Source: a virus
Lineage: Duplodnaviria > Caudoviricetes
Length of the DNA: 52,299 nt
IMG/VR virus record: IMGVR_UViG_3300030450_003597
Location: 1 to 52,299 of that record
Direction: 5' to 3' (one strand)
In this document: piece by piece, positions 2,479 through 33,851 of the stretch
Position numbering within the stretch: position 1 is the stretch's first letter
Layout of the letters: each line of letters opens with the position of its first letter
Notes under the pieces: generated by a model
Database searches by the model: none
The model's input: the letters and a program-made list of their open reading frames with translations, nothing else
Told to the model about the DNA's origin: nothing
Made by a program: the position numbers and the translations under genes

Positions 2479-2838
2479 ATGCAAAAAAGAACAAATCAAG
2501 CAACATTCGCAGTATTGGCAATGTTAACATTCTGGCTAACAATACACACAGTTAAATTAAATACAATAGTTCCAGACTATGAATATTTAACTAAAACTAT
2601 GAATTCTCTTATGAATAGAGTTATAGGAGCTGAAGAATTTATGAGAGAATTAGAAAGTAAAAAGGGTGAATTAGACTATAAAAAGCTTTATGAGAAACAA
2701 ATAGATAGTTTAACACCTTTTGGAGAGAAGTTTAATGAGATGAGAGAAGTATATGGAGCAGGATATACATTCCATTGGAATGGAGAATATTTTACTACAT
2801 ATTACGCTGAAGAAATTAACAATAACCAAACAAGATAA
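2479..2838 (+). CDS. Membrane-anchored protein with a C-terminal F-x-E-x-R...G-x-F-x-W-x-G-x-x-F-T-T motif
   Basis: N-terminal hydrophobic helix; AAGGAG RBS; directly upstream of the Ubl gene. Confidence 0.65.
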   Translation: MQKRTNQATFAVLAMLTFWLTIHTVKLNTIVPDYEYLTKTMNSLMNRVIGAEEFMRELESKKGELDYKKLYEKQIDSLTPFGEKFNEMREVYGAGYTFHWNGEYFTTYYAEEINNNQTR

Positions 2839-2849
2839 GGAGAGAAGGC

Positions 2850-3053
2850 ATGTCTATAAAAATCAATCTATTAAATAATGGTGAGTTCACATCACGAGAT
2901 GTATCTGCAAGTAATGTTGGAGATTTAAGGAATGAATTAGAAATTCCTACATCAGCACAAGTTAATGTTGGTGGAACTATCAGACAAAATGATTTTTCAT
3001 TGTCTGAAAATGATTATGTAGCATATACATCTAACAATAAAGTAGGAGGTTAA
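2850..3053 (+). CDS. Ubiquitin-like beta-grasp protein (ThiS/MoaD-like size) ending in di-glycine
   Basis: 67 aa with a beta-grasp-like pattern and C-terminus NKVGG. In an operon with JAB and E1 genes. Confidence 0.85.
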   Translation: MSIKINLLNNGEFTSRDVSASNVGDLRNELEIPTSAQVNVGGTIRQNDFSLSENDYVAYTSNNKVGG

Positions 3054-3055
3054 TT

Positions 3056-4612
3056 ATGAGCGATAGTATAACTTTCGATAATGGATTAACAGTTTTAAAT
3101 GTTAATAATTTAGATGTATTATCTGAACCATCTCAAGAGTTGGCTAATGCTATCGCTACAGGACCTCAAGATGAATTCTTTCAATTGTTAGAAAGTACTA
3201 ATGGGCTTATTAGGAGATTATCAGCAGGTAGAAATTATTATAATCAACCTGTTGATAATTCTCTTGATGTTTCCATTACACCATCTTGGAATTGGCGACC
3301 AGGAACTTACGATAAAATAAGAGAGCTAACGATAAAAATGCTACAATTAGAAAAGCGTAGTAATGGAGTATATAATTTCATTAAAAGAACAAAAGATAAT
3401 GCAGAATGGACTATGCATACTTTATTACGCAATTTTGATGAACTTGAGAGCTTGAAATCTACATTAAAATCAGAGAATTACCCATATAATGTTGATGTTA
3501 ATGAATATACAGATAAATTAAAATCATTTAGTACATCTGTTATAGAGCAATGTGAGAAAGTTGAAGAAACATTCCAAAACATATCTATAAAACCTTATAT
3601 TCATATAAATCAGGATAATACAAGAAATTCTATGTTTTATTTAGATGTTACATTAAATGAGCTAAAAATGAATGTATTTCATCAAAGAAATAAAATACAA
3701 GAAATTGCTTTAGAGCCTATTAGAATAGTTATTTATAACAAATTAAGGCATACTATGGCCAATTACTTGAAAAATTCTAGAATAAATAATTATTCATTTA
3801 GAGGAGTATATCAAGCAGAAGAATATCAGTATTTTAGCACAGACGATGGTGGAAGAAGTTTTAATTTTCCATATATTGCAAAAGCTAGATATAGGTATGA
3901 TAACCAAAGATATGATTATCAAACAGTATGTTTAGATAAATATTTAGATGATATTAAAAATAATCTAAGTAAAGTTGAATACATGCCAATGATAATGAAT
4001 TTAATGTCTTGGGCTACATATTATAATACTGAATATTCAAATCCTTATAACCAACCTTACGAATTGCATTTTGGTATGCCTGAATATATGAGCAGAGAAT
4101 ACAAATCAACATTTGCTAATGCATCTGATAATTGTTCAAATAGATTAGCGCGTACATATGGATTACATTCACAGCCATCTTTATCATATAAATATTTAAA
4201 TAATGGTATCGATATGATTAATAATGAATGTGATAGGATAAAATGCGTTTGGAGAGAAAATTGTGGAAAATATAGGACAATAAAACGCAATTTCGAATTA
4301 GTTAATAATGAAGATTTGAGGAATCAAGCTGAATCTTTATTAGGATTTATTCAATCTTTAGATGATTGGATGACAATTTTTAGAGATTATTATGGAGCAG
4401 TAGAAGATGATGATGAAATATTATTAAATCTTTTAATAATAAATTATAATCGTGGTAATACTCTACATGGAAATCAAATATTAACTGATTTTGGTTATTT
4501 TGACAAAGAAAATGAAGATAAGCTGGAAGATAGAGATGGAGAAGGTTCAGTACCAACAAGAGAGCAAATACAACAGAGAATGTTGCAATGGGCAACAGAA
4601 AGGAGTATGTAA
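3056..4612 (+). CDS. Putative E2 (UBC-like) conjugating-enzyme domain protein
   Basis: FPYI...VCLDKY...helix...YN...NPYN mirrors the UBC signature HPNI...ICLD...PN..DP.N. Candidate catalytic C292. Lies between the Ubl and JAB genes. Confidence 0.6.
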   Translation: MSDSITFDNGLTVLNVNNLDVLSEPSQELANAIATGPQDEFFQLLESTNGLIRRLSAGRNYYNQPVDNSLDVSITPSWNWRPGTYDKIRELTIKMLQLEKRSNGVYNFIKRTKDNAEWTMHTLLRNFDELESLKSTLKSENYPYNVDVNEYTDKLKSFSTSVIEQCEKVEETFQNISIKPYIHINQDNTRNSMFYLDVTLNELKMNVFHQRNKIQEIALEPIRIVIYNKLRHTMANYLKNSRINNYSFRGVYQAEEYQYFSTDDGGRSFNFPYIAKARYRYDNQRYDYQTVCLDKYLDDIKNNLSKVEYMPMIMNLMSWATYYNTEYSNPYNQPYELHFGMPEYMSREYKSTFANASDNCSNRLARTYGLHSQPSLSYKYLNNGIDMINNECDRIKCVWRENCGKYRTIKRNFELVNNEDLRNQAESLLGFIQSLDDWMTIFRDYYGAVEDDDEILLNLLIINYNRGNTLHGNQILTDFGYFDKENEDKLEDRDGEGSVPTREQIQQRMLQWATERSM

Positions 4613-5532
4613 TGGAACTAAGTCAAATGTTTCATATCAGAGAGAAAAGCTGGTATGAAATAATATCTTGGGCTAAGTTAGCATATGATGAAGATAAAAA
4701 TGAAATATCAGGCTTAGCTACAGCAGTACCTGATAAAAATGGATTCTTTATTATTGGCGATGTAGAAATAATGAAACAAGAAAATAGTGGCTCTAATACA
4801 GAGTTAGATGGAGATGCAGTTACAGCATATAAAATGAAATATGGGATGAAACATAAAAATCCTAATATGAAATTTGTATGGTGGCATTCACATCATACTA
4901 TGGATGCGTTTTGGTCAGGAACTGATAAGCAAGAAATAGATGCCTGGGAAAATGATTCTTTTTCATTAGCTCTTGTTATTAATCTTAAAGAAGAATATAA
5001 ATTCAGAGTAAGTATTTGGAAAGCTGCTGGATTAAATATAGCTCAACATTATGATATTCCATTAAATATATTAAGAAAAAATGGAGTAAATGTAACAGAT
5101 AAAATGAAAGAACAATATGAAGAACTTTGTTCTGATAAACATACATATGTTAACAATCATAATAACTGGAATAATAATTATCAAACAACAATATGGAATA
5201 ATGGCTTTAAAGCTAATATGCCTAATTGGAATGATATGAGCAAATATTCCAAGACACTTGAGTTAATAGAGAGCGCTATGGATGAGTTTATGAGCGATTC
5301 ATTGTCATTTAAAGATTTTAATGACCAAATGAAATTCTTAAATAGTGAAATTAAAAATCATAAAATTAAGGATTACAAGATAAAGATTCCAAAAGGCTCT
5401 AAACAAGCACTAATAAATAAGTTAAGTAGTATCTTTCCTGAAGAGTTATTAGAATTTAAGGATAATGATACAAAAGAGGCTTATCAAAATCAAACTGATG
5501 TTTGGGGAGGTAATTATGGCTACTTACATTAA
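4612..5532 (+). CDS. JAB/MPN+ (JAMM) metallo-isopeptidase
   Basis: NEISG Glu and WWHSHHTMDAFWSGTD (HxH-x7-S-x2-D). Start at 4612 by TAATG overlap with an AGGAG RBS. Confidence 0.9.
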   Translation: MELSQMFHIREKSWYEIISWAKLAYDEDKNEISGLATAVPDKNGFFIIGDVEIMKQENSGSNTELDGDAVTAYKMKYGMKHKNPNMKFVWWHSHHTMDAFWSGTDKQEIDAWENDSFSLALVINLKEEYKFRVSIWKAAGLNIAQHYDIPLNILRKNGVNVTDKMKEQYEELCSDKHTYVNNHNNWNNNYQTTIWNNGFKANMPNWNDMSKYSKTLELIESAMDEFMSDSLSFKDFNDQMKFLNSEIKNHKIKDYKIKIPKGSKQALINKLSSIFPEELLEFKDNDTKEAYQNQTDVWGGNYGYLH

Positions 5533-6199
5533 TACACGCTCTAGTGGATTAATAGATAGTCTTAATAAGCATTCTTTTCATATACTGGGCTGTGGAGCTA
5601 TAGGTAGCTCTGCAGCTACCCAGTTATGTAGAATGGGAGCAGAAAACTTCTCTTTATATGATATGGATAAAGTAGAAACACCAAATATAGGTGTATCTCA
5701 ATATAATCAATGTCATATTGGAATGAATAAGACATCTGCTTTAAAGCAACTATTAATTGATATTAATCATGAAATAGATGTAACTGAACATTTTGGTTTA
5801 TTTAGCAATTATTATTGGAATAGTAATAATGATATTATCATATTAGGATTTGATAGTATGAAATCAAGACTAGAATCAATGGAAATATGTTTAGCTAAAA
5901 GACCAAATTGGCATGAAAGCAAGCCTTTAATGGTAATTGATGGGAGGATGGGAGCCGAGCATTATCAACAGTATACCTTTTTATCTCCTTCTATAGATAA
6001 ATATAAAAAAACATGGTATTCTGATGATGAAGGAAGCTCTGAACCATGCAACATGAAAGCAACAAGCTATTGCTCTAATATGAGTGGAAGTTTTATAGCA
6101 AATACCGTTCGTAAAGTGCTAACTAAGCAACCTTATGAAGCCGCTTTGTCATTTAATTTTCCTACTACAATATTAGAGAAAAAGACCTTGTATAAATAG
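5516..6199 (+). CDS. ThiF/MoeB/E1-like adenylyltransferase
   Basis: ILGCGAIGS, DMDKVETPNIG, DGRMG, and candidate catalytic Cys in EPCNMKA. Start at 5516 after GGAGG. Confidence 0.92.
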   Translation: MATYINTRSSGLIDSLNKHSFHILGCGAIGSSAATQLCRMGAENFSLYDMDKVETPNIGVSQYNQCHIGMNKTSALKQLLIDINHEIDVTEHFGLFSNYYWNSNNDIIILGFDSMKSRLESMEICLAKRPNWHESKPLMVIDGRMGAEHYQQYTFLSPSIDKYKKTWYSDDEGSSEPCNMKATSYCSNMSGSFIANTVRKVLTKQPYEAALSFNFPTTILEKKTLYK

Positions 6200-6308: not shown

Positions 6309-6980
6309 ATGGCATTAAAAAAAGTCAAAAGAAAAGCTGTCTCCAATAATCCTAAAACGATGTTATTATATGGAGCTCCAAAAGTAGGAAAAACTACTGC
6401 ATTAAGCAAATTAGATGATTGTCTAATTATTGATACAGAAGGTGGAGCAAATATGATTGAAGGATATGTAGAGTCAGTAAAAGATAGAGCTGAATTAATA
6501 ACGCTCTTAAAAGAAGCACAAGACGGTCATGAATTTAAATATGTAGCTATAGATACTATAGATAGAGTAGCTACATGGGCAGATAAGGCTGTTTGTGAAG
6601 AAGAAGGTGTATCAGCAGTGCAAGACTTACCTTTTGGAAAAGGTTTTGGTCTTGTAAGAGAAAAAGTATTAAATACTATACATTTTCTTAAAGAAATATT
6701 TCCTCATGTGATAATAATCGGACATAGGAAATGGGCTAGAGCAATAGTAGATGGTAAAGCTATGGTTGAACCAGAAAGCTTAGATTTAACAGGAAAGTTA
6801 AAGAATATGCTGATGGCAGATTGTGATGCTATAGGTTACGTTTATAGAGATGAAGAGAAAAAGAAGTTAATGGTATCTTTTCAAGCAAATGAAGCCCTTG
6901 AAGCAGGAAGTAGAAGTCCTCATTTGAGAGGCAAAGAAATCGAATTAAACTGGAAGCTAATATATAAAGGAGATAAATAA
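6309..6980 (+). CDS. AAA-family ATPase (Sak4/AAA_24-like recombination protein)
   Basis: Walker A YGAPKVGKTT, IIDTEGG, Walker B VAIDTI. Confidence 0.85.
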   Translation: MALKKVKRKAVSNNPKTMLLYGAPKVGKTTALSKLDDCLIIDTEGGANMIEGYVESVKDRAELITLLKEAQDGHEFKYVAIDTIDRVATWADKAVCEEEGVSAVQDLPFGKGFGLVREKVLNTIHFLKEIFPHVIIIGHRKWARAIVDGKAMVEPESLDLTGKLKNMLMADCDAIGYVYRDEEKKKLMVSFQANEALEAGSRSPHLRGKEIELNWKLIYKGDK

Positions 6981-7573
6981 TGGCGATATTTAAACCAGAG
7001 GTAAAATCAAGTCCAACTAATTTCTTAGGATTATGTAAATTTGGTATACTTGAATTTAGAGATAGGTCATCTGAATTTGACTGGGCTGACATTTTCATAG
7101 AAGTCTTAGTAAAACAAGAAGGAAGTGAATATGACAGAACTATTCAAATAAAAGGCTCTTTAGATAAAGAAAATGGAAAGATTGTAGGAGGAGCTGTACT
7201 AAAAAGAATGTATCATACCTTTGAACAATTAGGTTGCGATGCAGGTATAAACATAGATGGAGGATGGGAAGATTCAGATGGAACTGAAATTAAAGATATT
7301 GCAAAATATTTAAATGATAAATTTGTAATAGCTAATGGAAAATCAGAACCAGATATGCATTATTTAGGTTATTTCTACAGAGAGAAACCTAAAGTACCAG
7401 GTGCGAAAGCTTATACAAGAGCTTTTGCTAAGTTCTATAAAAATGAAAATGATAGTGCCAATAAACTTCAAAATGATGTTGATTGGATGAAATCAAAAGG
7501 CTATCTAAAAGAAATGACAGATGAAGTTGAATCTAAAACTGAAATGTCAGGGAGTGGTTTAGATAATCTATGA
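6980..7573 (+). CDS. Putative ssDNA-binding protein
   Basis: Follows the Sak4-like gene; beta-rich with an acidic tail. Called on position only. Confidence 0.45.
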   Translation: MAIFKPEVKSSPTNFLGLCKFGILEFRDRSSEFDWADIFIEVLVKQEGSEYDRTIQIKGSLDKENGKIVGGAVLKRMYHTFEQLGCDAGINIDGGWEDSDGTEIKDIAKYLNDKFVIANGKSEPDMHYLGYFYREKPKVPGAKAYTRAFAKFYKNENDSANKLQNDVDWMKSKGYLKEMTDEVESKTEMSGSGLDNL

Positions 7574-9327
7574 AATACCTGGAGATAGCTAGAGCTACAC
7601 CTATCAATAGGGGTATTATGATACCAAAAGGGAAACTTATTAATTATATTAGTAAGGAACCTTTATATCGCTCTGTTTACTTATATGATGAAGAAGCTTT
7701 AGATTATGTAAGAAAAAATGGAACATTGAAGAATTACTTTGGTGTTAGATATATCGATAAAATACCTATAGATATTGATAAAGGTGATAATAGTGACGAA
7801 AGAACTCTAGACATCTTAAGAAGTGTTATTTTAGAGCTAGAGGAGGCGGACATCGAATGTGGGAGCTTTCAGTCTTACTTCTCTGGCTCTGGATACCATT
7901 TATTGCTATCAGGAGATTTATTTAACTTCAAACCTAGTAATGATTTACCCTTTATTGTTAAGCAAACATTAAAGAAATTAATACCTCATTTAGATTCAAG
8001 TATTTATATGAGAACTGGTATTTATAGAGTACAACATACTACTAATCAAAAAACTGGTTTATATAAAATACCTTTATATAGAGATGAGGTGATGAATTTA
8101 GATGCTAACGATATAATTGAAATGGCTAAAAATAATAGAAGCGATTTTAAATATCATAGCCTTTCAGGTAATGGAGAGCTAGAAAATTCTATAGTAGAAG
8201 ATATTCCTGATGTAAAAGTACTTGGTAAAGTATCAGAACCAAACAAAGTTGTACCTTGTATTCAATCTATGTTAAATAAAGGAGCGAATGAAGGAAGTAG
8301 GCATATTACAGCAATGAGAATAATAAGCTATTTTAAAAGAAATGGTTTACCTAGTCATTATGCTAAAGTATGCATGCTACATTGGAATGCTAAAAGCATG
8401 AATGAACAGCAAGTTATGGAGATGGTAGAGAATGTATATAATAGAAATTATCAATATGGATGTAAAGATTCAATTATGTCAGAACATTGTAAAACTCAAT
8501 GTATACATTTTAAAAGAAAAGACTATTTAGTAGATATAAAATCTTCAGATGAAATGCAAAGTGAATTACATGAAAGATTAACTACCGATTTTAGTGGAAA
8601 AACTATAGACCTAGGTAGGGCATTAGGAATAGAAAAAGAATCGGTTATATATCCAGGTGAGTTAGTAACTATATTTGGGCCAACAGGCTCTAATAAGACT
8701 ACTTTTGCTCAAAACTTAGCATTAGGAGTAGACTTTGTTAATGATAAAATTAATAAAAATTGGCAAATTCCTACATTATTTCTAAGCTTAGAGTTATCAT
8801 CATGGTATATGCATAGAAGGCATTTACAAATAGTATCAGGAAGAACTAAAGATGAAGTGAATAATAATTATTCAGGTCTTTATAATAGTAATAAAGATAA
8901 ACTAGAGCATGTCGTTGTTCAAACAATATCTCCTACTTTAGATAAAATATCTGAAAAAGTAAGAGAATTACAACCAGCTTTGGTAATTGTAGATTATATT
9001 GATTTAGTAGAAACTCCAATGTCGTATAGAGGAGAATACGAGAAAATCAAATATATATCTCATGGATTATCAAATATGGCAGTTAATAACGATATGATAG
9101 TAATACAAATATCGCAAGTAAGCAGAGAATATAGTCGAAATGAAGTGCTCGACCTATATGCAGGAAAAGGGTCTGGAGCAATAGAAAATGCGTCTAGAAA
9201 AGTAATTGGATTAAATGGTCAATCTGATTCCAAAACTAGAGCTGTTAAACTATTTAAAAACACAGATGGAGAGTTATTTGACACAGAAGTTGAATGGACT
9301 CCATCATTCAGATTAAGGAGGTTGTAA
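7570..9327 (+). CDS. Bifunctional AEP primase(-polymerase)/DnaB-like helicase
   Basis: AEP motifs IDID and FSGSGYH; Cys-rich PriL-like middle region; Walker A GPTGSNKT, VDYID, SQVSRE. Confidence 0.85.
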   Translation: MKYLEIARATPINRGIMIPKGKLINYISKEPLYRSVYLYDEEALDYVRKNGTLKNYFGVRYIDKIPIDIDKGDNSDERTLDILRSVILELEEADIECGSFQSYFSGSGYHLLLSGDLFNFKPSNDLPFIVKQTLKKLIPHLDSSIYMRTGIYRVQHTTNQKTGLYKIPLYRDEVMNLDANDIIEMAKNNRSDFKYHSLSGNGELENSIVEDIPDVKVLGKVSEPNKVVPCIQSMLNKGANEGSRHITAMRIISYFKRNGLPSHYAKVCMLHWNAKSMNEQQVMEMVENVYNRNYQYGCKDSIMSEHCKTQCIHFKRKDYLVDIKSSDEMQSELHERLTTDFSGKTIDLGRALGIEKESVIYPGELVTIFGPTGSNKTTFAQNLALGVDFVNDKINKNWQIPTLFLSLELSSWYMHRRHLQIVSGRTKDEVNNNYSGLYNSNKDKLEHVVVQTISPTLDKISEKVRELQPALVIVDYIDLVETPMSYRGEYEKIKYISHGLSNMAVNNDMIVIQISQVSREYSRNEVLDLYAGKGSGAIENASRKVIGLNGQSDSKTRAVKLFKNTDGELFDTEVEWTPSFRLRRL

Positions 9328-9542
9328 TGAAAGGTTGGTTCCTAAATATAGCTTTGCTTGAAGATAGATTTATTCTTATATTATTTAACTTATTAAAAAT
9401 AGGAATAATAAGAACTAACTCTGAAGGTTTTAATGGTATTAGTATAGTCTTAGGATTATATAAATTAGAACTTCAGATTAATCTATCATTGGTAAATGAT
9501 ATTAAAATAAAGTATAAAGATTATGAAGCAGGAAGAGCATAA
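9327..9542 (+). CDS. Hypothetical protein
   Basis: TAATG overlap with the helicase gene; AAGGAGG RBS. Confidence 0.6.
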   Translation: MKGWFLNIALLEDRFILILFNLLKIGIIRTNSEGFNGISIVLGLYKLELQINLSLVNDIKIKYKDYEAGRA

Positions 9543-10029
9543 AAAAAAGAAATACTACAGACCTAAAAGGGGACGAAAGTCCCCTAATAGGTTAACTGTA
9601 TGGGAAATGAAATTTAGCAAAAAACTTAAGAAAAATCATGGTACATTTGCTAAAAAGACTTTCCATAGATTGATGAAAAAGTCATCAACATTAAGGTCGA
9701 CATTAAAAAGAAGAAGTAGAGAATATGAAGTTGAATTTAATATATCTTTGGAAGAGGTTCGAGAATTATTATATAGAGTTTATGGCAAAAAATGTGGTTA
9801 TTGCGATTGTAAACTTCTTGTTAGTAATATGGCATGTGACCATATTATTCCTCTCAGCCTGGGCGGTAATTCTACTCCTGAAAATCTTCAAATGATTTGT
9901 GGGAGATGCAATACAAGAAAAGGGCCTTTAACAGATAGAAATTTTAGAAAAGTATTAAAATGGCTTGATAGACAAAATGGTGAATTAAAAAGATATGTTT
10001 TAAGGAAGTTATCAAGTAGAGATTTTTAA
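9523..10029 (+). CDS. HNH endonuclease
   Basis: CGYC...DHIIPLSLGG...NLQMICGRCNTRKG. Confidence 0.9.
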   Translation: MKQEEHKKKKYYRPKRGRKSPNRLTVWEMKFSKKLKKNHGTFAKKTFHRLMKKSSTLRSTLKRRSREYEVEFNISLEEVRELLYRVYGKKCGYCDCKLLVSNMACDHIIPLSLGGNSTPENLQMICGRCNTRKGPLTDRNFRKVLKWLDRQNGELKRYVLRKLSSRDF

Positions 10030-12502: not shown

Positions 12503-12687
12503 TTAAATGCTCAAAATGTAAAGAGTTAATAGGGCCATCAGCGCCTTGTTATAAAGCATCAAGGGGTTTTATGGATAGTGATGGAGTGTTCTATGAAGAT
12601 GAAACTATAGTTTTACACATGGAATGCTATTATCATTATACATTTGACCCTTTTGATGAAATAGAAAAAAATATAAAGAATAGTTAA
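12499..12687 (+). CDS. Small Zn-binding protein
   Basis: CSKC...HMEC. Last gene of the + arm; converges on the RNAP gene. Confidence 0.6.
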   Translation: MIKCSKCKELIGPSAPCYKASRGFMDSDGVFYEDETIVLHMECYYHYTFDPFDEIEKNIKNS

Positions 12688-15600
12688 TATAAAGACATGC
12701 CAGGAGTAGGAGGAGTATAATCAGATTCTCTTATTCTTTTTGCTTCTCTAGCCATTCCAGTTAATGGAAATCCAACTACTTTCTCAGGGAGCCTTAATGG
12801 GTTATTTAATAATCCAGTTTCAGGATGAGCAACATCCCTTATCATTCTACCAAATGGGAACATAGTCCACATATAATAATCAGATAATTTAGTATAATCA
12901 TCTTCAGCAAATTCTCTTATTACAGAGATAGGAAATCTTGCTATAGGAGGAGTAATCATTTGAAGAGGGGCTACAGCTCTAGGATAAGTACCAAAGAAAG
13001 CTCTATCTCTTTCTTTTTCATCACCAAATAGCCATTCTGATGTATCCTGTAACCAATTCCAAGGGGCAGGGAGTACTTGTTCAAATAATGAGTACATGAA
13101 AACTGAAGATAAAGCAAGAACAAATAAATCAGTAGTCATAGTTCTTTCAAATCTTTTCATAGCTTCAGTTCCTGGAGTATATCCATATAAACGAGCTTGT
13201 TTTCTTATATCATTTCTAAATCTAACAGCATTCCAAGACCATAATTGGAATCTTGACATAATTTTACCTAAACCAGAACGAGCAAATGCTGGTCTAAATG
13301 GAGCATTATATAAGAATTGTGTAGCTTTGACACCTTTTTTAGCTATTTCTATAAGATAAGGATGATTTGGGTCTTGTATAGAACCTCCAAATCTTTCCCA
13401 TGCTTTAATATAATGAGCCATAAAAGAATCTCTTCTTAACATTCTTTCAGGTATAGTCATAAATGCAGCAGCTTTTTTCATAACAGCATCTGTAATACCA
13501 TATTTTTTAGAAAGTGCAGTAAAATCTATATCTTTTACTTTTGCATCACTTTTTGATATTTCTATAAGTTCATTTGCAAAAGCTTTACCTTTACCTTCTC
13601 TAAATTCTTTATGTAATCCAAATTCATGTTGTAAAAATTCAGGCTGTATTCCTAAATCAGCTACAAAATCATTAATAGCTTCTTTGTTTTTCCATTTAGG
13701 ATTAATAGTTTGTAAAAAAGAAATATCTCTTGCTTTTCTTAAAGGCTCATAACCTACTGATTGAAATGTATGCATAGTACCACCAAATACATTATTAATC
13801 ATAGTTTTAGGATGAGTCATTAAAGTAGCTAATTGATATTTACCTTCAGTATTAGCAAGACTTCTTATATTATATGCATCTAATCCACCTATAATAATAT
13901 CTTTATCTTGCTTTTTAGTTATATCAATTTCTTTTATTGGGTCTTTGATTAAACCTAATTTTTCACCAATTTTATTTAGTTTTTTAGCAACAAGATTGTC
14001 AGCAAACCAACTATAAGGAGTGCCTTTTAATTTTAAATTAGGATTATCTAATTCAGCTTGAGATAACATTACTGGATTACCCATAGCTTCACTAGCATAC
14101 TTTTTCCAAAAAGTAACCCAGCCTTTAACCATTTCTCTAGCTTCTTTTTTATCCTTTTGAGATGCAGGTGTAACCCATTTTTTATTCATATGTTCCCTCA
14201 TATTATGAAGAGTATATCTAGATACTAAATTCCCCATTTGTCTAAAATAAGTATTTGTTAAGTTTCTAATATAAACTTCAACAGAGGTAGGGTCAACCAT
14301 CCATCCACCCATATGATTATCTCTTGCAAACATATTACCAAATCTCATATTTACAGAAGGAAGTTTAGTAGTTTCTTGTTTGCTTAATTCTTTCTTTTCA
14401 AGTTTAGTTAAAGTTTCTTTAAATAAATCAGCATCTAATTTATTCCACATTTTATAGTCAGCAAAATCCCAATCTCCAATTCTTGTTTTATATTGAGTAA
14501 TAAGTTTTTGAATTTTAGCTTGCTTTTCTTGTTTAGTAAGCGTTTTATCGCTTAATAACATATCTTTTTCATTCTTTAAAGATTGCTTTAATTTCTTTTT
14601 ACTATGAAAATAATGAGGGAAATAACCTTTTCTATATCCTGTGCTATTTATAACTAAGTCCTCATATTCCCTAGCTTTAGCTTCCTTGTCAGGTCTCCAT
14701 TTTGCTTGTTCAAGTTTGGATAATTTCCAATAATCTTCAGTGTTAATCTTTTTAACTTCACCTTTAACAAATCTAGTATATTCAGTAGGAGGAAGTAAAT
14801 CTATAAACATAGAACGAGTCATATGTCTCATTCCATCAACACCTATACCTAAAAATTCATCAACTTTTTTATCTTTAGATGATAATAATTGCCCTTTTTT
14901 ATAAGCTATATCTAAATCATTAATAAAGGATTTATAGTCTAAAATAGGCTGAGTTTGTTTATCAGGGTCATACCAGCCTGTTCTATATTTAGATAAAGCC
15001 CCAGGTCTACCTCTTATAATACTGTGATAATTCTCCATTAAACCTTCTAATTTATTCATTGTATAATCTATTAATTCGTGACCATTATACTTTTTTCTAA
15101 CCCCATCTAACTCAACAACATAGTTTTTATTTCTAATTTTAAAATAATTGTTATTCTTTTGAGAATCTTTCCAATTTTGTTCATATATCTTTTCACCAGA
15201 ATCATGGAATTGTTTTAACTCACTTTTTCTAACAGCAAGACGCCACATAGCATCGCCATCTTTAGTTTGGTTTAAATATTTAAATGAATCTTGAAAACTT
15301 CTTATCAATTCTTCAGATTTACCATAAGATAAATCATGAGTTCTACTTATCCAATTCTGTAATACTTCTCCATAATAAGTAGGTCTATACATTTTACCTA
15401 TTTTTGCAATACCATCTTTTGTTTGAAAATATCCTTCTGAAGGAAGGAATTTCATATCATTAGATAACATCTCAGCATCTATTTGTTTAGGGAATAAAAG
15501 ATGATGCCTTCTTTTTAATCCAGCTTTTTTCAAATTATCTAAATGTTTTTCCATTTGTTGAAACATATTACCGCTTCTTACAAATTTGAAATAATTATTT

Positions 15601-18600
15601 ATCAACTTATAATCTTTAATATTCATTTGATTTAAAGTTTTAGGAGGAACATCTGAAAAAGGTTCATGCATAGTACTATAAATACCAGATAATAATTGAC
15701 TTATATCTTTTCCTTTAGCATCAGAATAGAATTTTAAATTCTCAAATAGTTCCTTAACAATCTTCTTATTTTCAGGAGTAGCTTCAACATTGCCTTTCTT
15801 AATACCTTGATATGCATCAATATCATTTGTAATATTTGCTGCTAATCTTATATCTCTTTTATTTATAAGCGGGTCAATTTCTTTTTCGAAAGATTCTATA
15901 TCTACCTCTTTATAAGGCTCCATAGATTTAAGATAATATTTATTTTTAGTTTTAAAGAAGTTCATTATATTCTTAGAACTAACAACTTTAGAATCGAATG
16001 CAGCTTTAGTAGTATTTGTTTTAGCTCCTTGTTTATATAAATCAGTTAAAGTTATCTTTTCTAATTTATCTTTATTAGGCATTTTCATATACTTATCAAT
16101 AGATTTCTGCATTTCAGGACTTCTTAAAGAGCCAATATACAGATTATCAAATACATCTCTTGCTGACTCCGAAGGTAAGGATTCCTTGTATTTTAATATT
16201 AAATTATCTAAAGTAGCATTGTCAACTAATTTTGTTCTTCTCTCTAATCCTTTAAGATTAATAGGACTTTTCAAATTTAAAGCTTCATGTAAAGATTTTA
16301 TATCTTTCAATCTATTTACTTCTTGAGTTGACTCAGATGGAACAAATTCCCCTCTATTGCTTCTCATTTTATGTTGATAAGCATTAATACTTTTAAATTC
16401 TTCTACTTTAGCTCTTATTTGAGCCATTAATTCATTAGTTAGACCTTCACCTTTTTCATAACTTTTTTCATAAATATCAACTATTCTATCAAGAGTAGTC
16501 ATATTATGAAAAGCATTAGATAGATAATCTTGAGAATCACTTAATAATTTCCTAAGATAGCCTTCTACTTCTACTTCATTTAGAGGGTCTTTGATATTAT
16601 GTCTTATCTTACTAATACCCAATTCTTTAATTAAAGATTTACCATCCTTAGACCAAGATTTAATATTTTCTTCAATAAATAAATCATTTTTAAGTATGAA
16701 GTCAACTTGTTTACTAGGTTCTTCTACTAATTTTGTTCTACCTAATAATTGTTTATAGAAATCTAATTTCTTAGCATATACTTCATGTTTGTTATATAGT
16801 TTTTTATAAGCATTAAAATCAATTCTTTTAAATAAAGATATATCCATATCTACGTTTCTAAGAGTATTGGCAAATTTCATAGTACTAGTTGTCATTTCAT
16901 TACTATCATAATTGTTTATTCTTTTGCCCATCATTTTTTTCTCAAATGGAGTATAACCTCTATTTAAATCCCAATTTCTACTAAAATAAGCAGCATTAAA
17001 ATTCCTAATATCATTATATCTTTGATGATTTTGAGTTTTTCCTTCAATTCCATAAGTTGGAATCTTTGATAAATTAATCCATTTTTTAGTTTTTTCATTA
17101 TATTTTTGAGGAGTAATTTTAAAATAAGCTTCTCTTAATAATGATTGCATCTTAGGAAATTCTATTAATCCAGTTTCATTTGCTGGGTCAGCTGTGAAAT
17201 TAACTAAAGCTTTACTTAAATCTCTTTGTTCAGCACTAGCTTCTTTAGGTTCTAATATAGTCCTATATTTTACCCCATCTTTAAAGATTCCTTTTTCAAA
17301 TACATCAAACTTATTATTACTATGCTTTAAAGAGCTCCATGCAGCTCTCATATGAGATGTCATCCCGACTACTGGTCCCATTTTACCTCTACTCCTGGCA
17401 TGTTCTTGTCCAACAAACATTCGTACAGCAGGAGAGAATCTAGCTAATGGGTTTTTATTTACTTGGTCTAAGAAATCAGGATTTAAACCCCTATCTTTTA
17501 CATCTTTTCTTGATATAACAATTTTATCTCTATATTGAGTTTTAGCATCTTTTATATTAGTCTTATCTTTGGTATAAAATTCTTCTTTTTGTGCTTTATA
17601 CATATCTTTCCAGCTTTTTTTCATACCTTCGCCAGTACCATCAGCATGCCTTCCTCCAAAATATATAAAAGATTCATCTCCATCAAGGTCAGCTCCACCT
17701 TGAGCCTCCATAGACCTTCCGTGAGATAATACTCCATGGTCTTTAATACCAGTAAATCCAGCAAATCTTTTAACTTGAGCTCCTGAAGGTGAATCCTGAG
17801 GTACTCTTACATTGATTGCTTCAAATATATCATCAAACTCTTGTTTGTATTTCTTAAATTCAGGCATATTTTTAACAGACCACAATTTGCCTAATGTAGT
17901 TTTTTCTAATCTAGGAATATTAGTATACATAGGAGTATCTTTATATAAGTCTCCAAGATAGAATATATCATCTTTTTTGTTTAACTCAGGAAACTTTTCC
18001 TGTAAAGATTTATCATAAGGTCTCATCCTGGCTACAATAGCATTTTTCATCTTAGGTCTTAAAACTCTTTCAGCTACAAATCTATCAATAGAAGTATGCA
18101 CATAATCTTTAGTATATTTATCAAAAAACATTGGATAAGCATCTTCCATTTTAGATAAATGCTTAATAATATTATCAGCTGTAGAGTAAAAATCAACTAA
18201 ATTCCTACTTTGTTCTTCAGCTTGAGTTCCAGAGTTTTCGCCTTCATTTCTAGACATTTCTAGAGATTCTTTATTTGTTTTAAGTATCTTTAAAAGCATT
18301 TCTTGAGCTAATTTTTCCGAACCAGGACTTTTCAATACTTTCTCTACAGATTTAATACCAACATCATCAAAGTTTTCTATAATGTCTTTTAATATTTTAT
18401 CAGAAGGTTTTTCTAAATAAGAATCAACTAACTTATTATATTCAGTCTTCCCATCAAACGACCTTTGTGCTATTTCATTATAAAGATTATCGATAGTCTC
18501 TTGGCTAACCTTAGAGTACATATCAGGATGAAGGTTAGTAAGCATTTGTTTTACAAATGTAATGCCTATAGGTTTACCAGCTTCATTTTTACCAAGCATT

Positions 18601-21600
18601 TTATGGTCATTGATAACAGAATGAGAATATCTTAAATCTCCTGGGTTTATTTCAATAATTTCTTTAGCTCCTCCAATAAGCTCTAAAGGTTTACCTTTAA
18701 TATAATTATAATCACCTGGAATCCTGTCTCCTGTTTGTTTAATAGCACTTTCCATCATAAGAAAATTAACGCCTTCTCCATTATTAGCTTTTTCCATAGC
18801 TTTAGTTAAGTCAGGACCAGCTTTATGAATCATATATTTACCAAGTATAGTTCCTTTAGGATTCTTTGATATAATAAAAGACTTATTAGAACCTGTATAT
18901 GGAACTCCTGCATCAAGATTAATAGCATCTACAACTGCATCTGTTGCTATAATAGCTCCATCAACATGCTGAGGTAGTTTTACATTTAAAGCTTTTAATA
19001 TATTATCTATCTTTACGGGGTCAGCAATAAGAGAACCTTTATAGTTACCATCTCTTTTACCTAAAGCTATTTCATTAGCATGATTCTCTCTAGATGCTAG
19101 ATTTTTTATAGCTTCATTTTCAGGTAAAAAATGAGCTTTTTCATGTCTAATTACAAAATCTTCCCAAGATTTATAACTTTTGAAAATATTTTCAGGAAGA
19201 GGATTTACTCCTTTTACTTTAGGTTTTATCCACACTTTATTATCATAATCTTCTCTAAGTTTATCTTTATCAATTTTAATTGCTCTATTTTTCTTATCTG
19301 TTTGCGCAGAAACAAATCTGTCTGAAACAGTTGATTTTATATTCTTAGAATAAACTATCTTTAAATCAGGTAATTTAATTTTAGATAATTTTAAATCTGC
19401 ACCTGTATATTTAGGATTATTAATAAATTCTTTATCTCCTTTAATACCATTAGTCATCCATATTTGAGCTCTTTTATTATCTGCAACAGCATTTTGTATA
19501 AATCCAGGATTATTTATCATTTTATTTATAGGCATACCATTTAATTGCTCTTGATATGCTATAATAGATTTCATCATATTATCATGCTCTAATCGATTCA
19601 TACCATATAAATCTTTAGCAGTCTTATAAATAGAAGGAGGTAAATTTACTTTCTTTGTTTTCTTATAATTTGGATGATACTTAACAAATATTATTCTATC
19701 TTTATCGCCTACTCCACCATATGGATGATAACCTTTTTTACCCATCTTTTTTATAGTATTTGATATAAAGTCCTTTTTAATTGCTTTTTGCTCTAATGAA
19801 GTACCCTCTCTTCTTGTAGCATATTCAAATTTAGATAAGTCATAATCCACGCCTTTATAAGTAAGCGCATCTAATATAGCATATTCAAATTCTTTTGGAG
19901 GCTCTATTACTAATTTTGATTTACCTCCCATTGTATATGGATTTTCTTTATCTGTTAGCTCAACCTTTTTACCATCTGTATTTATAAAACGAACAGCCTC
20001 TCCTTGATTTTGTACAGCAATCCACTGTCTCATTTTACCTTTTAAGTCAGTTGGTAGTTGCATATTAAACTCTTGTTCTATAGCTTCTACCCATTCTGGA
20101 GACCTATTTTTAGTTGAACCTCTTTCTATGTATTCAGGGGCTAATTTACCAGCAGATTTTGATATTTTAACTATCATATCATCTCTTTCAACAGAGCTTT
20201 TAATAGTCTTTTTTAATTCAGGTCTTAAGTAGGTTTGCATAAAATAAGACATTTTATTATCAATAGGGCTAGTATAGAATTCACCTGCATCTCTAACATC
20301 ATTTGTCTCAATATCAAGAATATCCTGTTTTTTATCTATTTCTGCATCAATTTCAGCTTTAAAGCCCATTTTATCCCATTTTTGGAACAAAGACTCTATA
20401 GCCTGCTTCTCACCTATGTCAATAGCTTTCTTTCCAAAAAAGGCTACTCTAGGGCTTAATTCAGGAGTTTTAGCTGTTGTAATGAATTTTTTACTACCTT
20501 TATCATACTTAAGCCATTGCTTAGTTTTATCATAAACATACACCTCTTTACCTGCATCAATACCCATTTGAATTGCATATTTAGATAATCCTTTAGTAGC
20601 AGTCATTTTATCATTTACTTTGTCTACTGATATAATTTGGTCTGAGAATTTAACATTAACGAAATCTCTTCTCATTCCTTCTTTAGCATATTCAGATAAT
20701 CTTCCTATCCTAACCTTTTCTCCAGCTTTATTTAAATTTTCTATAGCAGTATCAATACCTTTATTAGCTTCAACTAGATACTTTCTTTCTATAGTAATTG
20801 ATTCATTAGGCTTACCATAAGTCTTTACTTGGTCAGGGAATTTTGTCTCTACAGAAGATATATCTCTTTTTCTAGCACTCTCTAATACTTGTGCTTGAGT
20901 TCCAGTTTCTCCAGTAGTCATAACATAGTATCTAGTAGGGTCTGGTTTAGAAGCTTCTTTGATAGATTCTCTAATTATTTGTTTTTGTTGTTTTTGAACT
21001 TCTTTTTCTATTTTATCAGCAACTTTAAATACTTCAGAGCGAACATCTTTTCCAGATTTTTGAAGCTCTTCCATCTTAGGAGCCATGCCTTCTACTTCAG
21101 CTCTCCTATAGAGTTCATAGGTAGCTGCTTCTATTTCCTCTGGAGTACCTCCAGCCATACCTGGTCCAGAAGTAATTTTTAAAACCTCTTTTTGAACTTC
21201 AGGTTCTACTTTTTCCCAACCTTCATATAGTTCTCTTGGGTCATAAGTTTTTCTATGAATAGGATTATCACTTTTTTCAGCTTTCTCTCTAACCTTTTGA
21301 GCAATAGGCATAGCCTTAGCTACAGTCCAAGGTTTTTCAGAACCACCAAAGTATGCACCCATAAGATATTCATATACTTGTTCAGGAGTTGAAGCTCCTC
21401 TTGCAGTTGCAGGTAATCCCATAAATAAAGAACCTGCTAAACCTCTTGCAAACTTCTCTGCCTTAGGGTCTTGCATGTTTATTTGATTTCCAATACCTCT
21501 AAATACACCACCAGCTATAGCTCCATGAAAGAAACTATCAAGCATAACATCTACACCACCTTGCCAAGCAGATATAGCACTTGCAGTACCTAGGTTGAAA

Positions 21601-33785: not shown

Positions 33786-33851
33786 TTTTCTCCTTGCATA
33801 TCCATTTAATGTTATTATATGAAGATGTCCAGTATTTGTCAGGAACAATCA

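What the first reader, a model, noticed from the sequence alone, without database searches (positions are those of the whole stretch)
2850..6199. Complete phage-encoded ubiquitin-like conjugation operon (Ubl-E2-JAB-E1)
Seen: four tightly coupled genes in the early arm. They encode a 67-aa Ubl ending in GG, a 518-aa protein with a UBC-like Cys motif, a JAMM peptidase (HSH...S..D) and an E1 (GCGAIGS, candidate Cys178 counted from the 5516 start). Known: this is the composition and order of the bacterial anti-phage BilABCD system, which attaches a Ubl to phage tail proteins; ThiF and MPN genes have been noted in crAss-like phages. Inference: a phage with no integrase carries the whole cascade as an early function. 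It could tag host proteins, sabotage co-infecting phages, or counter host Bil/CBASS-type conjugation. The Ubl is already mature (stop right after GG), so the JAB would be a deconjugase and not a priming enzyme. No desulfurase or rhodanese is present, which argues against a simple sulfur relay.
Basis: partly seen in the sequence, partly recalled or inferred. Interest (0 to 1): 0.92.

Follow-up and report, generated by a model that had tools for sequence, protein, structure and literature searches.

The report
Phage ubiquitin-like activation and transfer module
A widespread group of uncultured marine phages carries a fixed four-gene set that looks built to activate a small ubiquitin-like protein and attach it to something, but the key "E2" part is identified only by a short motif and nobody knows the target.

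Summary
Four translationally coupled genes lie at 2850-6199 of a 52.3-kb phage genome that CheckV rates complete. Three parts are now supported by tests. The 67-aa protein ending in GG is a ThiS/MoaD-type beta-grasp protein (hhalign Prob 87%). The peptidase has every JAMM catalytic residue and its best solved matches are Rpn11 deubiquitinases. The E1 is a minimal ThiF-type adenylase with two conserved cysteines. The fourth part, the 518-aa "E2", is not proven. It has an invariant Cys292 in an HP[YHF][IV]...C[LW]G[DN]...W...NPxN core, conserved across 72 sequences only 15-23% identical to it. No Pfam, NCBIfam, PHROG, PADLOC or PDB search recognises it. hhalign to Prok-E2 A, B and D is not significant, but that test lacked power. 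The module is kept in 86 related viral loci wherever the contig reaches. The module is not a BilABCD or PRTRC member. It is a new variant of the Ubl/E2-like/JAB/E1 cassettes already known on mobile elements, including PRTRC in Ralstonia phage Dina and a related trio in crAss001. Function and targets are unknown.

The parts
2850..3053 (+). 67-aa ThiS/MoaD-type ubiquitin-like protein ending in Gly-Gly directly before the stop
   Evidence: ORF; SD and junction. The family has 401 clusters. The invariant C-terminal motif is N[ND]K[VTS]GG. hhalign of a broad family profile against 30 bona fide ThiS/MoaD sequences gives Prob 87.4%, E 3.7e-6, while 5 control alignments give Prob <=0.5%. There is no Pfam, NCBIfam or PDB hit for the single sequence or the near-clade profile.
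3056..4612 (+). 518-aa protein with invariant Cys292 in an HP[YHF][IV]...C[LW]G[DN]...W...NPxN core, followed by a conserved four-Cys cluster (C360, C392, C397, C403) and a conserved C-terminal tail. It is the candidate E2-like, possibly E2/E3-like, transfer protein
   Evidence: The family has 43 clusters and 384 representatives at 50% identity. Invariant residues are, the motif panel. No family or PDB match was found. It is linked to the 512-aa protein of a Nitrospirota mobile element at Prob 82.8%. It is the fastest-evolving of the seven genes compared.
4612..5532 (+). JAMM/MPN+ metallopeptidase: an N-terminal catalytic domain of about 180 aa plus a variable C-terminal region of about 130 aa. 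The longest ORF starts at 4588, but the probable start is 4612
   Evidence: Pfam Prok-JAB scores only 19 bits, E 0.0013, below the cut-off of 25. E31/H92/H94/S102/D105 (4612 numbering) are invariant in 25 of 25. The profile's 15 best PDB hits are all Rpn11/PSMD14, E 3.2e-5 to 5.2e-3. hhalign to PRTRC-A gives Prob 81% and to crAss001 Gp77 Prob 93%.
5516..6199 (+). Minimal ThiF/MoeB-type E1 adenylation enzyme (227 aa from 5516; the longest ORF starts at 5465), with two conserved cysteines after the IDGRMG strand
   Evidence: Pfam ThiF 72.5 bits, E 3.8e-20, cut-off 28.1. PADLOC Cap2 'E1-E2' models match on their E1 half only. PDB hits are MccB, a ThiF-type protein (9egc), UBA5 and Cap2. Conserved residues are. 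hhalign to PRTRC-ThiF gives Prob 96%. The start is shown.
6309..9327 (+). Invariable downstream neighbours: Sak4-like AAA_24 ATPase (6309-6980), a 197-aa protein of unknown function (6980-7573) and a primase/DnaB-type helicase (7570-9327). These are context, not part of the cascade
   Evidence: Searches give the family assignments.

Best explanation
This is a phage-encoded ubiquitin-like protein activation and transfer module, expressed with the replication genes. Step 1 applies to relatives with a tailed precursor and is not needed in this phage: the JAMM peptidase trims the Ubl to expose Gly-Gly. Step 2: the minimal, probably homodimeric ThiF-type E1 adenylates the Gly-Gly carboxylate with ATP. 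It may hold the Ubl as a thioester on one of its two conserved cysteines (Cys195 or Cys203 in 5465 numbering). Step 3: the Ubl passes to the invariant Cys292 of the 518-aa protein. That protein acts as an E2-like carrier and, through its large, fast-evolving flanking regions and its Cys4 cluster, probably also as its own target selector. Step 4: the Ubl is joined to a protein target of phage or host. The JAMM peptidase can reverse this. What is shown: the four genes, their coupling, their conservation, the beta-grasp/GG, JAMM and ThiF identities, and the invariant Cys. What is inferred: every chemical step, the E2-like fold, and that the end product is a protein conjugate. The biological role is unknown. 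Because the module always sits in the replication or establishment arm of mobile elements, in one relative with an ArdA anti-restriction gene inside it, I favour modification of a host or replication-associated protein early in infection.
For: The E1 is a bona fide ThiF domain. The Ubl aligns to ThiS/MoaD at Prob 87% with clean controls. Its GG end is invariant while the residues after it vary freely in length and sequence, which marks GG as the functional C-terminus. The JAB keeps every JAMM catalytic residue and is closest to Rpn11 deubiquitinases among solved structures. The 518-aa protein keeps a single invariant Cys across 72 sequences of 15-23% identity. The motif around it has the order seen in the Prok-E2 reference sequences I extracted ([WF]PH[VI]..dG.lCl; AP..NV..G..C.GN). 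Its best hhalign alignments to E2 references, though not significant, fall on that Cys motif each time. The Atlas model of family member P0039 aligns 143 residues to a Prok-E2_D cluster with TM 0.52 by target. The gene order equals Bil and PRTRC C-(F)-B-A-ThiF. The module is present in every one of 86 viral loci where the contig reaches, except one unresolved Ubl. Precedents for minimal homodimeric E1s with a crossover-loop nucleophile and for very diverged E2s come from passages of PMC11601596 read.
Against: No profile library or PDB sequence search recognises the 518-aa protein. hhalign to Prok-E2_A, B and D gives Prob <=2.5%. The Atlas model is poor (pLDDT 0.44, pTM 0.40), its E2_D row is 'under the bar', and the feature hit scores 0.89, below 0.9. 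The His of the HP motif is Phe in the window protein and many relatives. The spacing from HP to Cys varies from about 5 to about 50 residues, unlike canonical E2s. ThiS/MoaD-type proteins with GG, JAB trimming and a ThiF partner also occur in pure sulfur-transfer pathways (Iyer et al. 2006, PMC1779556, passages read). The E1 family lacks the Arg of the NLxRQ motif (alignment to MccB). No expression data and no structure could be obtained.
Confidence: 0.5

Rival explanations
1. Sulfur-carrier pathway. The E1 adenylates the ThiS/MoaD-like protein, a host persulfide donor converts it to a thiocarboxylate, and the 518-aa protein is the sulfur-accepting or sulfur-inserting enzyme, with Cys292 and the Cys4 cluster as persulfide or metal sites. 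It would make a thio-modified nucleotide, cofactor or metabolite needed during replication. The JAB trims precursors or releases an adduct.
For: The Ubl's only significant relatives are ThiS/MoaD. The corresponding protein in the Nitrospirota element passes the Pfam ThiS and SAMP2 cut-offs. The E1 is the minimal ThiF/MoeB type and its best NCBIfam hits are ThiF models, though all are far below their cut-offs. JAB plus ThiS/MoaD plus E1 neighbourhoods devoted to sulfur assimilation are described in PMC1779556 (passages). Host rhodanese and desulfurase are near-universal (13 and 14 of 14 control genomes). The placement among replication and nucleotide-metabolism genes would suit a nucleic-acid modification.
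Against: The 518-aa protein matched no family at all in Pfam, NCBIfam, PHROGs or PADLOC, including any sulfur-transfer enzyme family. It is the least conserved of the seven genes compared, which is unusual for a biosynthetic enzyme acting on a fixed small substrate. In the near clade the Ubl is the best conserved of the four module proteins (72% median). From recall, sulfur carriers are usually the less conserved partner.
Confidence: 0.2
2. The 518-aa protein is not a carrier enzyme. It is the target, scaffold or regulator of a three-part Ubl/E1/JAB switch, for example a replication-associated protein that is itself reversibly modified, with the E1 transferring the Ubl directly as in E2-independent SAMP- or TtuB-type conjugation.
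For: Nothing proves an E2 fold. From recall, E2-independent conjugation by ThiS/MoaD-type modifiers with only an E1 and a JAMM is established in archaea and Thermus. The protein is large, multi-part and evolves fast. The module is always embedded among replication proteins.
Against: A mere target would not be expected to keep one invariant Cys inside a conserved motif across 15-23% identity. Nor would it be expected to hold the exact E2 slot in the operon order shared with Bil and PRTRC. The same slot is filled by a homologous Cys-motif protein in a distant Nitrospirota element.
Confidence: 0.15
3. The module acts mainly as counter-defence by interference. The JAB strips host Ubl-type conjugates (Cap2-primed cGAS-like enzymes or Bil conjugates on virion proteins), and the phage Ubl/E1 pair acts as a decoy or competitor. 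Its own conjugation would be secondary.
For: The E1's best PADLOC matches are the E1 halves of CBASS Cap2 models, E down to 5e-15. An ArdA anti-restriction gene sits inside the homologous module of the Nitrospirota integrative element. The fast evolution of the 518-aa protein fits an arms race.
Against: The similarity to Cap2 is confined to the generic adenylation domain. The JAB gives no PADLOC hit at all. A decoy role does not explain strict conservation of all four genes and of the E1 cysteines. No host is known, so no cognate defence can be named.
Confidence: 0.1

Closest known systems
PRTRC cassette (ParB-related, ThiF-related cassette; NCBIfam PRTRC_A, B, C, E, F and ThiF) on plasmids, integrative elements and some phages
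   Same: It is carried by mobile elements next to replication or partition genes. The order is small protein C, then F and B (B is the Pfam Prok-E2_D family), then A (JAB), then ThiF, seen in Ralstonia phage Dina and in 8 plasmids (two of them lacking A). B was found on 323 plasmid records. The window's JAB aligns to A (Prob 81%) and its E1 to PRTRC-ThiF (Prob 96%). [quoted passage not shown]
   Different: No NCBIfam PRTRC cut-off is reached (E1 19.5 vs 144.75 bits; JAB 15.9 vs 101.8 bits; nothing for the other two). There is no ParB or E. The window's Ubl ends in GG and is ThiS-like, whereas the C proteins end in KG, RG or NG and align neither to it nor to ThiS. One 518-aa protein stands where F and B stand, with no detectable similarity to F and only a non-significant match to B on the Cys motif.
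BilABCD (Bil, types I and II) bacterial anti-phage ubiquitination system
   Same: The gene order is Ubl-E2-DUB(JAB)-E1. A JAB peptidase pre-processes Ubls that carry up to nine residues after the conserved Gly. There is no separate E3 (passages of 10.1101/2023.09.26.559546 and of PMC11601596).
   Different: BilD is a large IAD-AAD-CYS E1, while the window's E1 is a single domain of 227-244 aa. BilB is a compact UBC-fold E2 (186 aa in the sequence printed), against 518 aa here with no recognisable UBC domain. No PADLOC model matches the Ubl, the 518-aa protein or the JAB. It is encoded by a lytic-type phage rather than a bacterial defence island.
crAss001 Gp78-Gp77-Gp76 and the same trio in other crAss-like Bacteroides phages; ThiF of Flavobacterium psychrophilum phages
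   Same: Of the 76 phage records with a tblastn match to the window's E1, 29 are named Bacteroides phages and 29 Flavobacterium phages. In crAss001 the layout is a 444-aa hypothetical protein, a 'metalloprotease' and ThiF, inside the replication module. Gp77 is homologous to the window's JAB (Prob 93%) and Gp76 to the E1 (E 5e-25). By eye, Gp78 contains HSHVSS-x13-C-T-G.
   Different: Gp78 gives no significant match to the 518-aa family. No separate GG-ended small ORF was found beside it. Gp76 has an extra N-terminal region of about 165 aa of unknown nature.
Bub (6E/DUF6527) and CBASS Cap2/Cap3 systems
   Same: Both use minimal homodimeric or fused E1-like adenylation domains together with very diverged E2s and JAB peptidases (passages). 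Cap2 E1 halves are the window E1's best PADLOC hits.
   Different: Bub works through Ser/Tyr oxyesters and has the DUF6527 protease. Cap2 is an E2-E1 fusion acting on a cGAS-like enzyme. None of these partners is present here, and hhalign to Prok-E2_B (mostly ~550-630-aa frames, the size recalled for Cap2-type E2-E1 fusions) is negative.

Membership tests
ThiF/MoeB/E1 adenylation superfamily (window 5516-6199) | ThiF domain above the Pfam gathering score, with the GxGxxG nucleotide loop | tested here: met
   PF00899 72.5 bits against a cut-off of 28.1. GCGAIGS is invariant in 22 of 22 sequences.
ThiF/MoeB/E1 adenylation superfamily (window 5516-6199) | Conserved nucleophile (Cys) in the crossover loop or a CYS domain | tested here: inconclusive
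   Cys195 and Cys203 are at least 95% conserved in 65 sequences. Their place in the crossover loop is inferred from the sequence order only, because no structure was available.
ThiS/MoaD-type beta-grasp ubiquitin-like proteins (window 2850-3053) | Small protein whose functional C-terminus is Gly-Gly | tested here: met
   35 of 37 near copies end at GG, plus 3 truncated copies ending KVGG*. In 37 of 37 far copies the N[ND]K[TS]GG motif is kept, with or without a variable tail.
ThiS/MoaD-type beta-grasp ubiquitin-like proteins (window 2850-3053) | Sequence-profile similarity to the family | tested here: met
   hhalign Prob 87.4%, E 3.7e-6 over 43 columns against 30 ThiS/MoaD sequences, with 5 controls at <=0.5%. 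However, there is no Pfam or NCBIfam hit and no PDB hit with the near-clade profile.
JAMM/MPN+ metallopeptidases (window 4612-5532) | E...HxHx7Sx2D catalytic and zinc-binding motif | tested here: met
   All five residues are invariant in 25 of 25 sequences. The spacing was read directly from the sequence.
JAMM/MPN+ metallopeptidases (window 4612-5532) | Family model above threshold | tested here: inconclusive
   Pfam Prok-JAB scores 19 bits, below the cut-off of 25. The family profile does hit 15 Rpn11/PSMD14 sequences in the PDB at E 3.2e-5 to 5.2e-3.
UBC/E2 superfamily, including Prok-E2_A, B and D (window 3056-4612) | Invariant catalytic Cys downstream of an HPN-like turn | tested here: met
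   Cys292 is invariant in 72 of 72 sequences and Pro272 in at least 90%. The His position is often Phe. That HPN is the canonical form is recalled, not tested.
UBC/E2 superfamily, including Prok-E2_A, B and D (window 3056-4612) | Recognition by a family model or a profile-profile match | tested here: not met
   No Pfam hit in 72 of 72 members at E <=0.05. hhalign gives Prob <=2.5% against E2_A (7 sequences), E2_B (8) and PRTRC-B/E2_D (11). The power was low: the control PRTRC-B vs E2_A/B also failed (Prob <=0.3%), while E2_A vs E2_B gave 82.6%.
UBC/E2 superfamily, including Prok-E2_A, B and D (window 3056-4612) | UBC fold (an alpha/beta core with the Cys on the loop after the beta-meander) | not testable with these tools
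The only structural hint is the Atlas's own low-confidence model of P0039, which gave TM 0.52 by target to a Prok-E2_D cluster.
BilABCD | Gene order Ubl-E2-DUB-E1 | tested here: met
   One search compared with the passages read.
BilABCD | E1 with IAD-AAD-CYS architecture, and sequence homology of all four proteins to their Bil counterparts | tested here: not met
   The E1 is a single ThiF domain of 227-244 aa. PADLOC gives 0 hits for three proteins, and for the E1 the 25 hits shown (of 32) are all Cap2-type 'E1-E2' models. That PADLOC 2.0 contains Bil models is recalled, not checked.
PRTRC cassette | NCBIfam PRTRC models above their cut-offs, plus ParB, E and F | tested here: not met
   PRTRC_ThiF 19.5 vs 144.75 bits, PRTRC_A 15.9 vs 101.8 bits, and no hit for B, C, E or F. 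No ParB-like gene was seen beside the module.

The most novel reading that the evidence does not exclude
A globally distributed lineage of marine phages, and more distantly the crAss-like gut phages, use their own ubiquitin-like conjugation machinery as a core, non-optional early function. A minimal E1 loads a GG-ended modifier onto a previously unrecognised, giant and fast-evolving E2/E3-in-one protein. That protein tags host proteins (defence or replication-control factors) to take over the cell. This would be ubiquitin-style signalling used by viruses of bacteria against their hosts, the mirror image of Bil.
Probability: 0.25. Interest if true: 0.88.

Novelty: new variant of a known kind. 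Interest (0 to 1): 0.68.

Why it matters
Ubiquitin-like conjugation in bacteria has so far been shown as a host weapon against phages (CBASS Cap2, Bil) or left unexplained on plasmids (PRTRC). Here the same logic is a fixed part of the replication arm of an abundant, uncultured marine phage group. The Ubl family alone has 401 clusters at 90% identity, many with Tara-sourced names. The module is related to a trio in crAss-like phages, which do have cultured members. If the 518-aa protein is a real Ubl carrier, it defines a new, very divergent E2-like family with 384 representatives at 50% identity and no annotation. That would make a long-standing open question testable, namely what mobile-element Ubl cassettes are for, because crAss001 and the Flavobacterium phages offer laboratory systems. 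If it is a sulfur-relay system instead, it would point to an unknown thio-modification made by phages.

Tried and rejected

Complex prediction of E1 + Ubl + the 518-aa protein (the scored partner) returned 'no answer', score 0.01. That is neither for nor against binding.

The ESM Atlas has no model for the window protein. For P0039 its own model is poor, so I used it as a lead only.

PDB sequence searches found nothing meaningful with the 518-aa protein alone, with its profile or with the near-clade Ubl profile.

DNA and tblastn searches of deposited phages found nothing for the module DNA or for the 518-aa protein.

A genome-contig scan with A1 found no cellular copy. The scan with the E1 alignment found four loci. 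Two lie on contigs of a MAG titled Nisaea sp. whose GC (25-30%) differs from another contig of that MAG (44%). I therefore reject them as a host clue.

hmmsearch and hhalign of the 518-aa profiles against crAss001 Gp78 were negative. I considered a fused Ubl in the crAss001 Gp76 N-terminus and found no support for it.

I considered that the 518-aa protein equals PRTRC F + B. There is no similarity to F (Prob <=0.1%).

An MccB-like peptide-nucleotide synthesis role, suggested by the best PDB hit, was rejected. The similarity is confined to the generic Rossmann part, and from recall MccB acts on a C-terminal Asn, not on GG.

No RNA holder was listed, so nothing can be said about expression, and read laying was not used.

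A viral-contig scan with two Prok-E2_D proteins found nothing.

Literature: searches turned up no paper describing this phage module. 'crAss-like' + 'ThiF' + 'ubiquitin' gave 0 papers. I read passages only of PMC1779556, PMC11601596, 10.1101/2023.09.04.556158, 10.1101/2023.09.26.559546 and PMC3318190. Supplements were closed, and the operon tables of the Bil and Bub papers might list phage-borne examples that I could not see.

The statement that the Ubl is the most conserved gene was checked and rejected as a general claim. It holds only within the four module genes of the near clade.

Full report
WHAT IS THERE. The window is a whole virus record that CheckV rates 100% complete and IMG/VR classes as linear. 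I found no terminal direct repeat. The + strand block from 1 to about 12.5 kb carries small genes and replication genes. The - strand block carries terminase, portal, major head protein, a tail spike and two giant ORFs. GC skew changes sign at about 12-14 kb. The four ORFs of the finding are present as described.

The junctions, read directly, show translational coupling throughout. The Gly-Gly codons GGA GGT of the small gene form the ribosome-binding site of the next gene. The stop of the 518-aa gene overlaps an ATG at 4612 (TAATG), and GGAGG precedes the ATG at 5516. Family conservation of the peptidase starts at the Met encoded at 4612, so I take 4612 and 5516 as the real starts of the JAB and the E1.

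THE THREE PARTS THAT HOLD UP.

E1. Pfam ThiF scores 72.5 bits against a cut-off of 28.1. The GCGAIGS loop, D66, D68, K89, D130, R135, R25 and an IDGRMGxEHYQQY strand are conserved in 65 distinct sequences, as are Cys195 and Cys203. It is a single-domain protein of 227-244 aa. Its best solved relatives by sequence are MccB, a ThiF-type protein (9egc), UBA5 and Cap2, and the match covers only the Rossmann part. The passages I read in the Bub preprint (PMC11601596) state that minimal homodimeric E1s such as UBA5, ThiF and BubCD carry their nucleophile on the crossover loop. The two cysteines here lie where such a loop would be, but that placement is an inference from the sequence order.

JAB. Pfam alone is below threshold (19 bits against 25). 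The motif nevertheless fits E...HxHx7Sx2D exactly, and all five residues are invariant in 25 of 25 near and far sequences. A family profile finds 15 Rpn11/PSMD14 sequences as its 15 best PDB hits, with E from 3.2e-5 to 5.2e-3.

Ubl. The single sequence and the near-clade profile hit nothing. A broader profile, which includes the divergent copies from distant phages, aligns to 30 bona fide ThiS/MoaD sequences drawn from bacterial genomes at Prob 87.4%, E 3.7e-6 over 43 columns. The two GG ends fall within two residues of register. Five unrelated alignments score Prob 0.5% or less.

THE C-TERMINI. In the near clade 35 of 37 copies stop right after K[VT]GG, and two carry tails of 9 and 11 residues. 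Three further copies truncated by contig ends also read ...KVGG-stop. In the distant branches the motif N[ND]K[TS]GG is kept in 37 of 37, but 30 of 37 continue for 1 to 30 further residues of no conserved sequence, and 7 stop at GG.

An invariant GG followed by a tail of free length and sequence is what one expects of a modifier whose working end is GG and whose precursor is trimmed. For the family as a whole, priming is the simplest reading. This feature does not separate conjugation from sulfur transfer, since trimming by a JAB is discussed for both in Iyer et al. 2006 (PMC1779556, passages).

THE 518-AA PROTEIN. It belongs to a large unannotated family: 43 clusters at 90% identity and 384 representatives at 50% identity with E up to 0.001. 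None of the window protein plus 71 distant members has any Pfam domain at E up to 0.05. PHROGs, PADLOC, NCBIfam and PDB searches are equally blank.

Across 72 sequences that are 15-23% identical to the window protein, the invariant residues are G83, C292 and P330. P272, W319, G340, C360, C392, C397 and C403 are at least 90% conserved. The core reads HP[YHF][IV]S, then an insert of about 5 to 50 residues, then [VIL]C[LW][GS][DN], then about 25 residues, then W, then about 10 residues, then [TS]NP[LY]N and G.P. The reference bacterial E2 domains that I extracted show [WF]PH[VI]..dG.lCl (Prok-E2_B) and AP..NV..G..C.GN (Prok-E2_D/PRTRC-B), so the resemblance is real at motif level.

It is not statistically supported. 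hhalign of the family against Prok-E2_A (7 sequences), Prok-E2_B (8) and PRTRC-B (11) never exceeds Prob 2.5%. The best alignments do fall on the Cys motif each time. In a panel of 11 references PRTRC-B was the top hit for the core profile, at E 0.018 over 13 columns.

The controls matter here. E2_A against E2_B gave Prob 82.6%, but PRTRC-B against E2_A or E2_B gave 0.3% or less. With such small reference sets and no secondary structure, the test cannot connect even accepted E2 families, so the negative result is weak.

The Atlas holds a model of family member P0039 (pLDDT 0.44). Its structure search lists a Prok-E2_D cluster with 143 aligned residues and TM 0.52 by target. Its feature search lists a viral cluster in which 14% of members carry PF14460, at score 0.89. 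Both are below the service's own bar. I therefore call the E2 fold favoured but unproven.

The protein is the fastest-evolving of the seven genes compared: median identity to the window protein is 36% in the near clade and 26% in the far clade. The corresponding figures are 72/34 for the Ubl, 63/59 for the E1 and 54/39 for the JAB.

CONSERVATION AND RELATIVES. In 45 loci found with the near family, the string Ubl, 518-aa protein, JAB, E1, Sak4-like ATPase, 197-aa protein and primase/helicase is present wherever the contig reaches. All 8 missing Ubls, the 1 missing JAB and the 3 missing E1s are at contig ends. In 41 loci of distant branches the counts are 41 for the E2-like gene, 38 for the JAB, 37 for the Ubl and 36 for the E1. 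All JAB and E1 misses are at contig ends. One locus (L106) has no detected Ubl despite 5 kb of upstream sequence. In L100 the Ubl lies between the E2-like gene and the JAB.

The contigs are mostly about 50 kb. The terminase is only about 26% identical to its best match in deposited phages, so the lineage has no cultured relative in that collection.

Among deposited phages the E1 finds 76 records, of which 29 are named Bacteroides phages and 29 Flavobacterium phages. In crAss001 the layout is Gp78 (444 aa, hypothetical), Gp77 (metalloprotease) and Gp76 (ThiF), between a primase and UDG/RNR. Gp77 is homologous to the window's JAB (Prob 93%) and Gp76 to the E1. Gp78 cannot be linked by sequence.

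A Nitrospirota MAG contig carries a tandem ThiS/SAMP2-type Ubl ending in EGGI (both Pfam cut-offs passed), a 512-aa protein, a JAB, ArdA and an E1. These are flanked by a DnaG-type primase, a tyrosine integrase and a RuvB-like ATPase. The 512-aa family aligns to the window's family over the Cys core at Prob 82.8%, E 9.4e-6.

The Prok-E2_D lead led to the PRTRC cassette. NCBI annotates PRTRC E, C, F, B, A and ThiF in Ralstonia phage Dina. The B protein was found on 323 plasmid records, with the order ParB-E-C-F-B-A-ThiF or a close variant in the 8 I fetched.

A Ubl/E2-like/JAB/E1 cassette on mobile elements, phages included, is therefore already in the databases, with unknown function. Iyer et al. 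2006 speculated on addiction or protection roles for such mobile clusters (passages). The window's module does not meet any PRTRC model cut-off, and it differs in its Ubl and in the protein that occupies the E2 slot.

MECHANISM AND RIVALS. My best reading (confidence 0.5) is the cascade given under Best explanation: trimming where needed, adenylation, transfer to Cys292, conjugation and reversal. The main rival (0.2) is a sulfur-carrier pathway. The absence of rhodanese and desulfurase from the phage does not exclude it, because nearly all cellular genomes have both. What weighs against it is that the large protein matches no family at all, sulfur-transfer enzymes included, and that it evolves fastest. 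A third reading (0.15) makes the large protein the target or scaffold of an E2-independent system. A fourth (0.1) makes interference with host Cap2 or Bil conjugation the main role.

VERDICT. As for novelty, this is a new variant of a known kind of mobile-element Ubl cassette. It includes a large, unannotated Cys-protein family and is a core feature of an abundant marine phage lineage. Interest is 0.68. It remains high because the function of all such cassettes is open and this family offers a clean, conserved case.

Noticed in passing
window 12684-22148 (-) and 24483-33848 (-): Two giant ORFs of 3154 and 3121 aa take up over a third of the genome. Pfam finds nothing in the first. In the second it finds only a sub-threshold E1_FCCH match (E 6.7e-5, 23.3 bits against 29.5) at residues 2281-2329, which is probably chance.
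   Followed up: no
L049:5384-5920 (Nitrospirota MAG contig): An ArdA anti-restriction gene (Pfam E 2.8e-34) is inserted between the JAB and the E1 of the homologous module. The element also has a DnaG-type primase, a tyrosine integrase and a RuvB-like ATPase.
   Followed up: partly
L048 and L051 (contigs of a MAG titled Nisaea sp.): These two contigs carry the same phage module and a primase/helicase. Their GC is 25-30%, against 44% for another contig of the same MAG (L116). They are probably phage contigs binned with the wrong genome, so they give no host evidence.
   Followed up: partly
window 3045-3058: The Gly-Gly codons GGA GGT of the Ubl double as the Shine-Dalgarno sequence of the downstream 518-aa gene. 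Selection on the GG end and on coupling may therefore reinforce each other.
   Followed up: no
window 5465-6199; E1 residues 74-80: The whole E1 family has N-I-G-V-S-Q-Y where MccB has N-L-T-R-Q in the alignment, so the Arg of that motif is missing. G76-V77-S78 are invariant in the 22 sequences and at least 95% conserved in the 65. An invariant Arg25 near the N-terminus may compensate.
   Followed up: no
L071-L090 (distant branch): The Ubls of this branch carry an insert of about 20 residues (...DNSSAMPVNELNDDGTTRP...) before the last strand, plus short tails after GG such as C, IK, AK or SK.
   Followed up: no
L100:4941-8806: This is a gene-order variant: E2-like gene, then Ubl, then JAB, then E1.
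   Followed up: no
window 2479-2838 (+): The 119-aa ORF directly upstream of the Ubl was detected in 25 of 45 near loci and has no family match. It may belong to the same transcription unit.
   Followed up: no
window 9523-10029 (+) and 33852-34634 (-): An HNH/endonuclease VII-type gene lies after the primase/helicase, and a metallophosphoesterase lies next to the second giant ORF.
   Followed up: no
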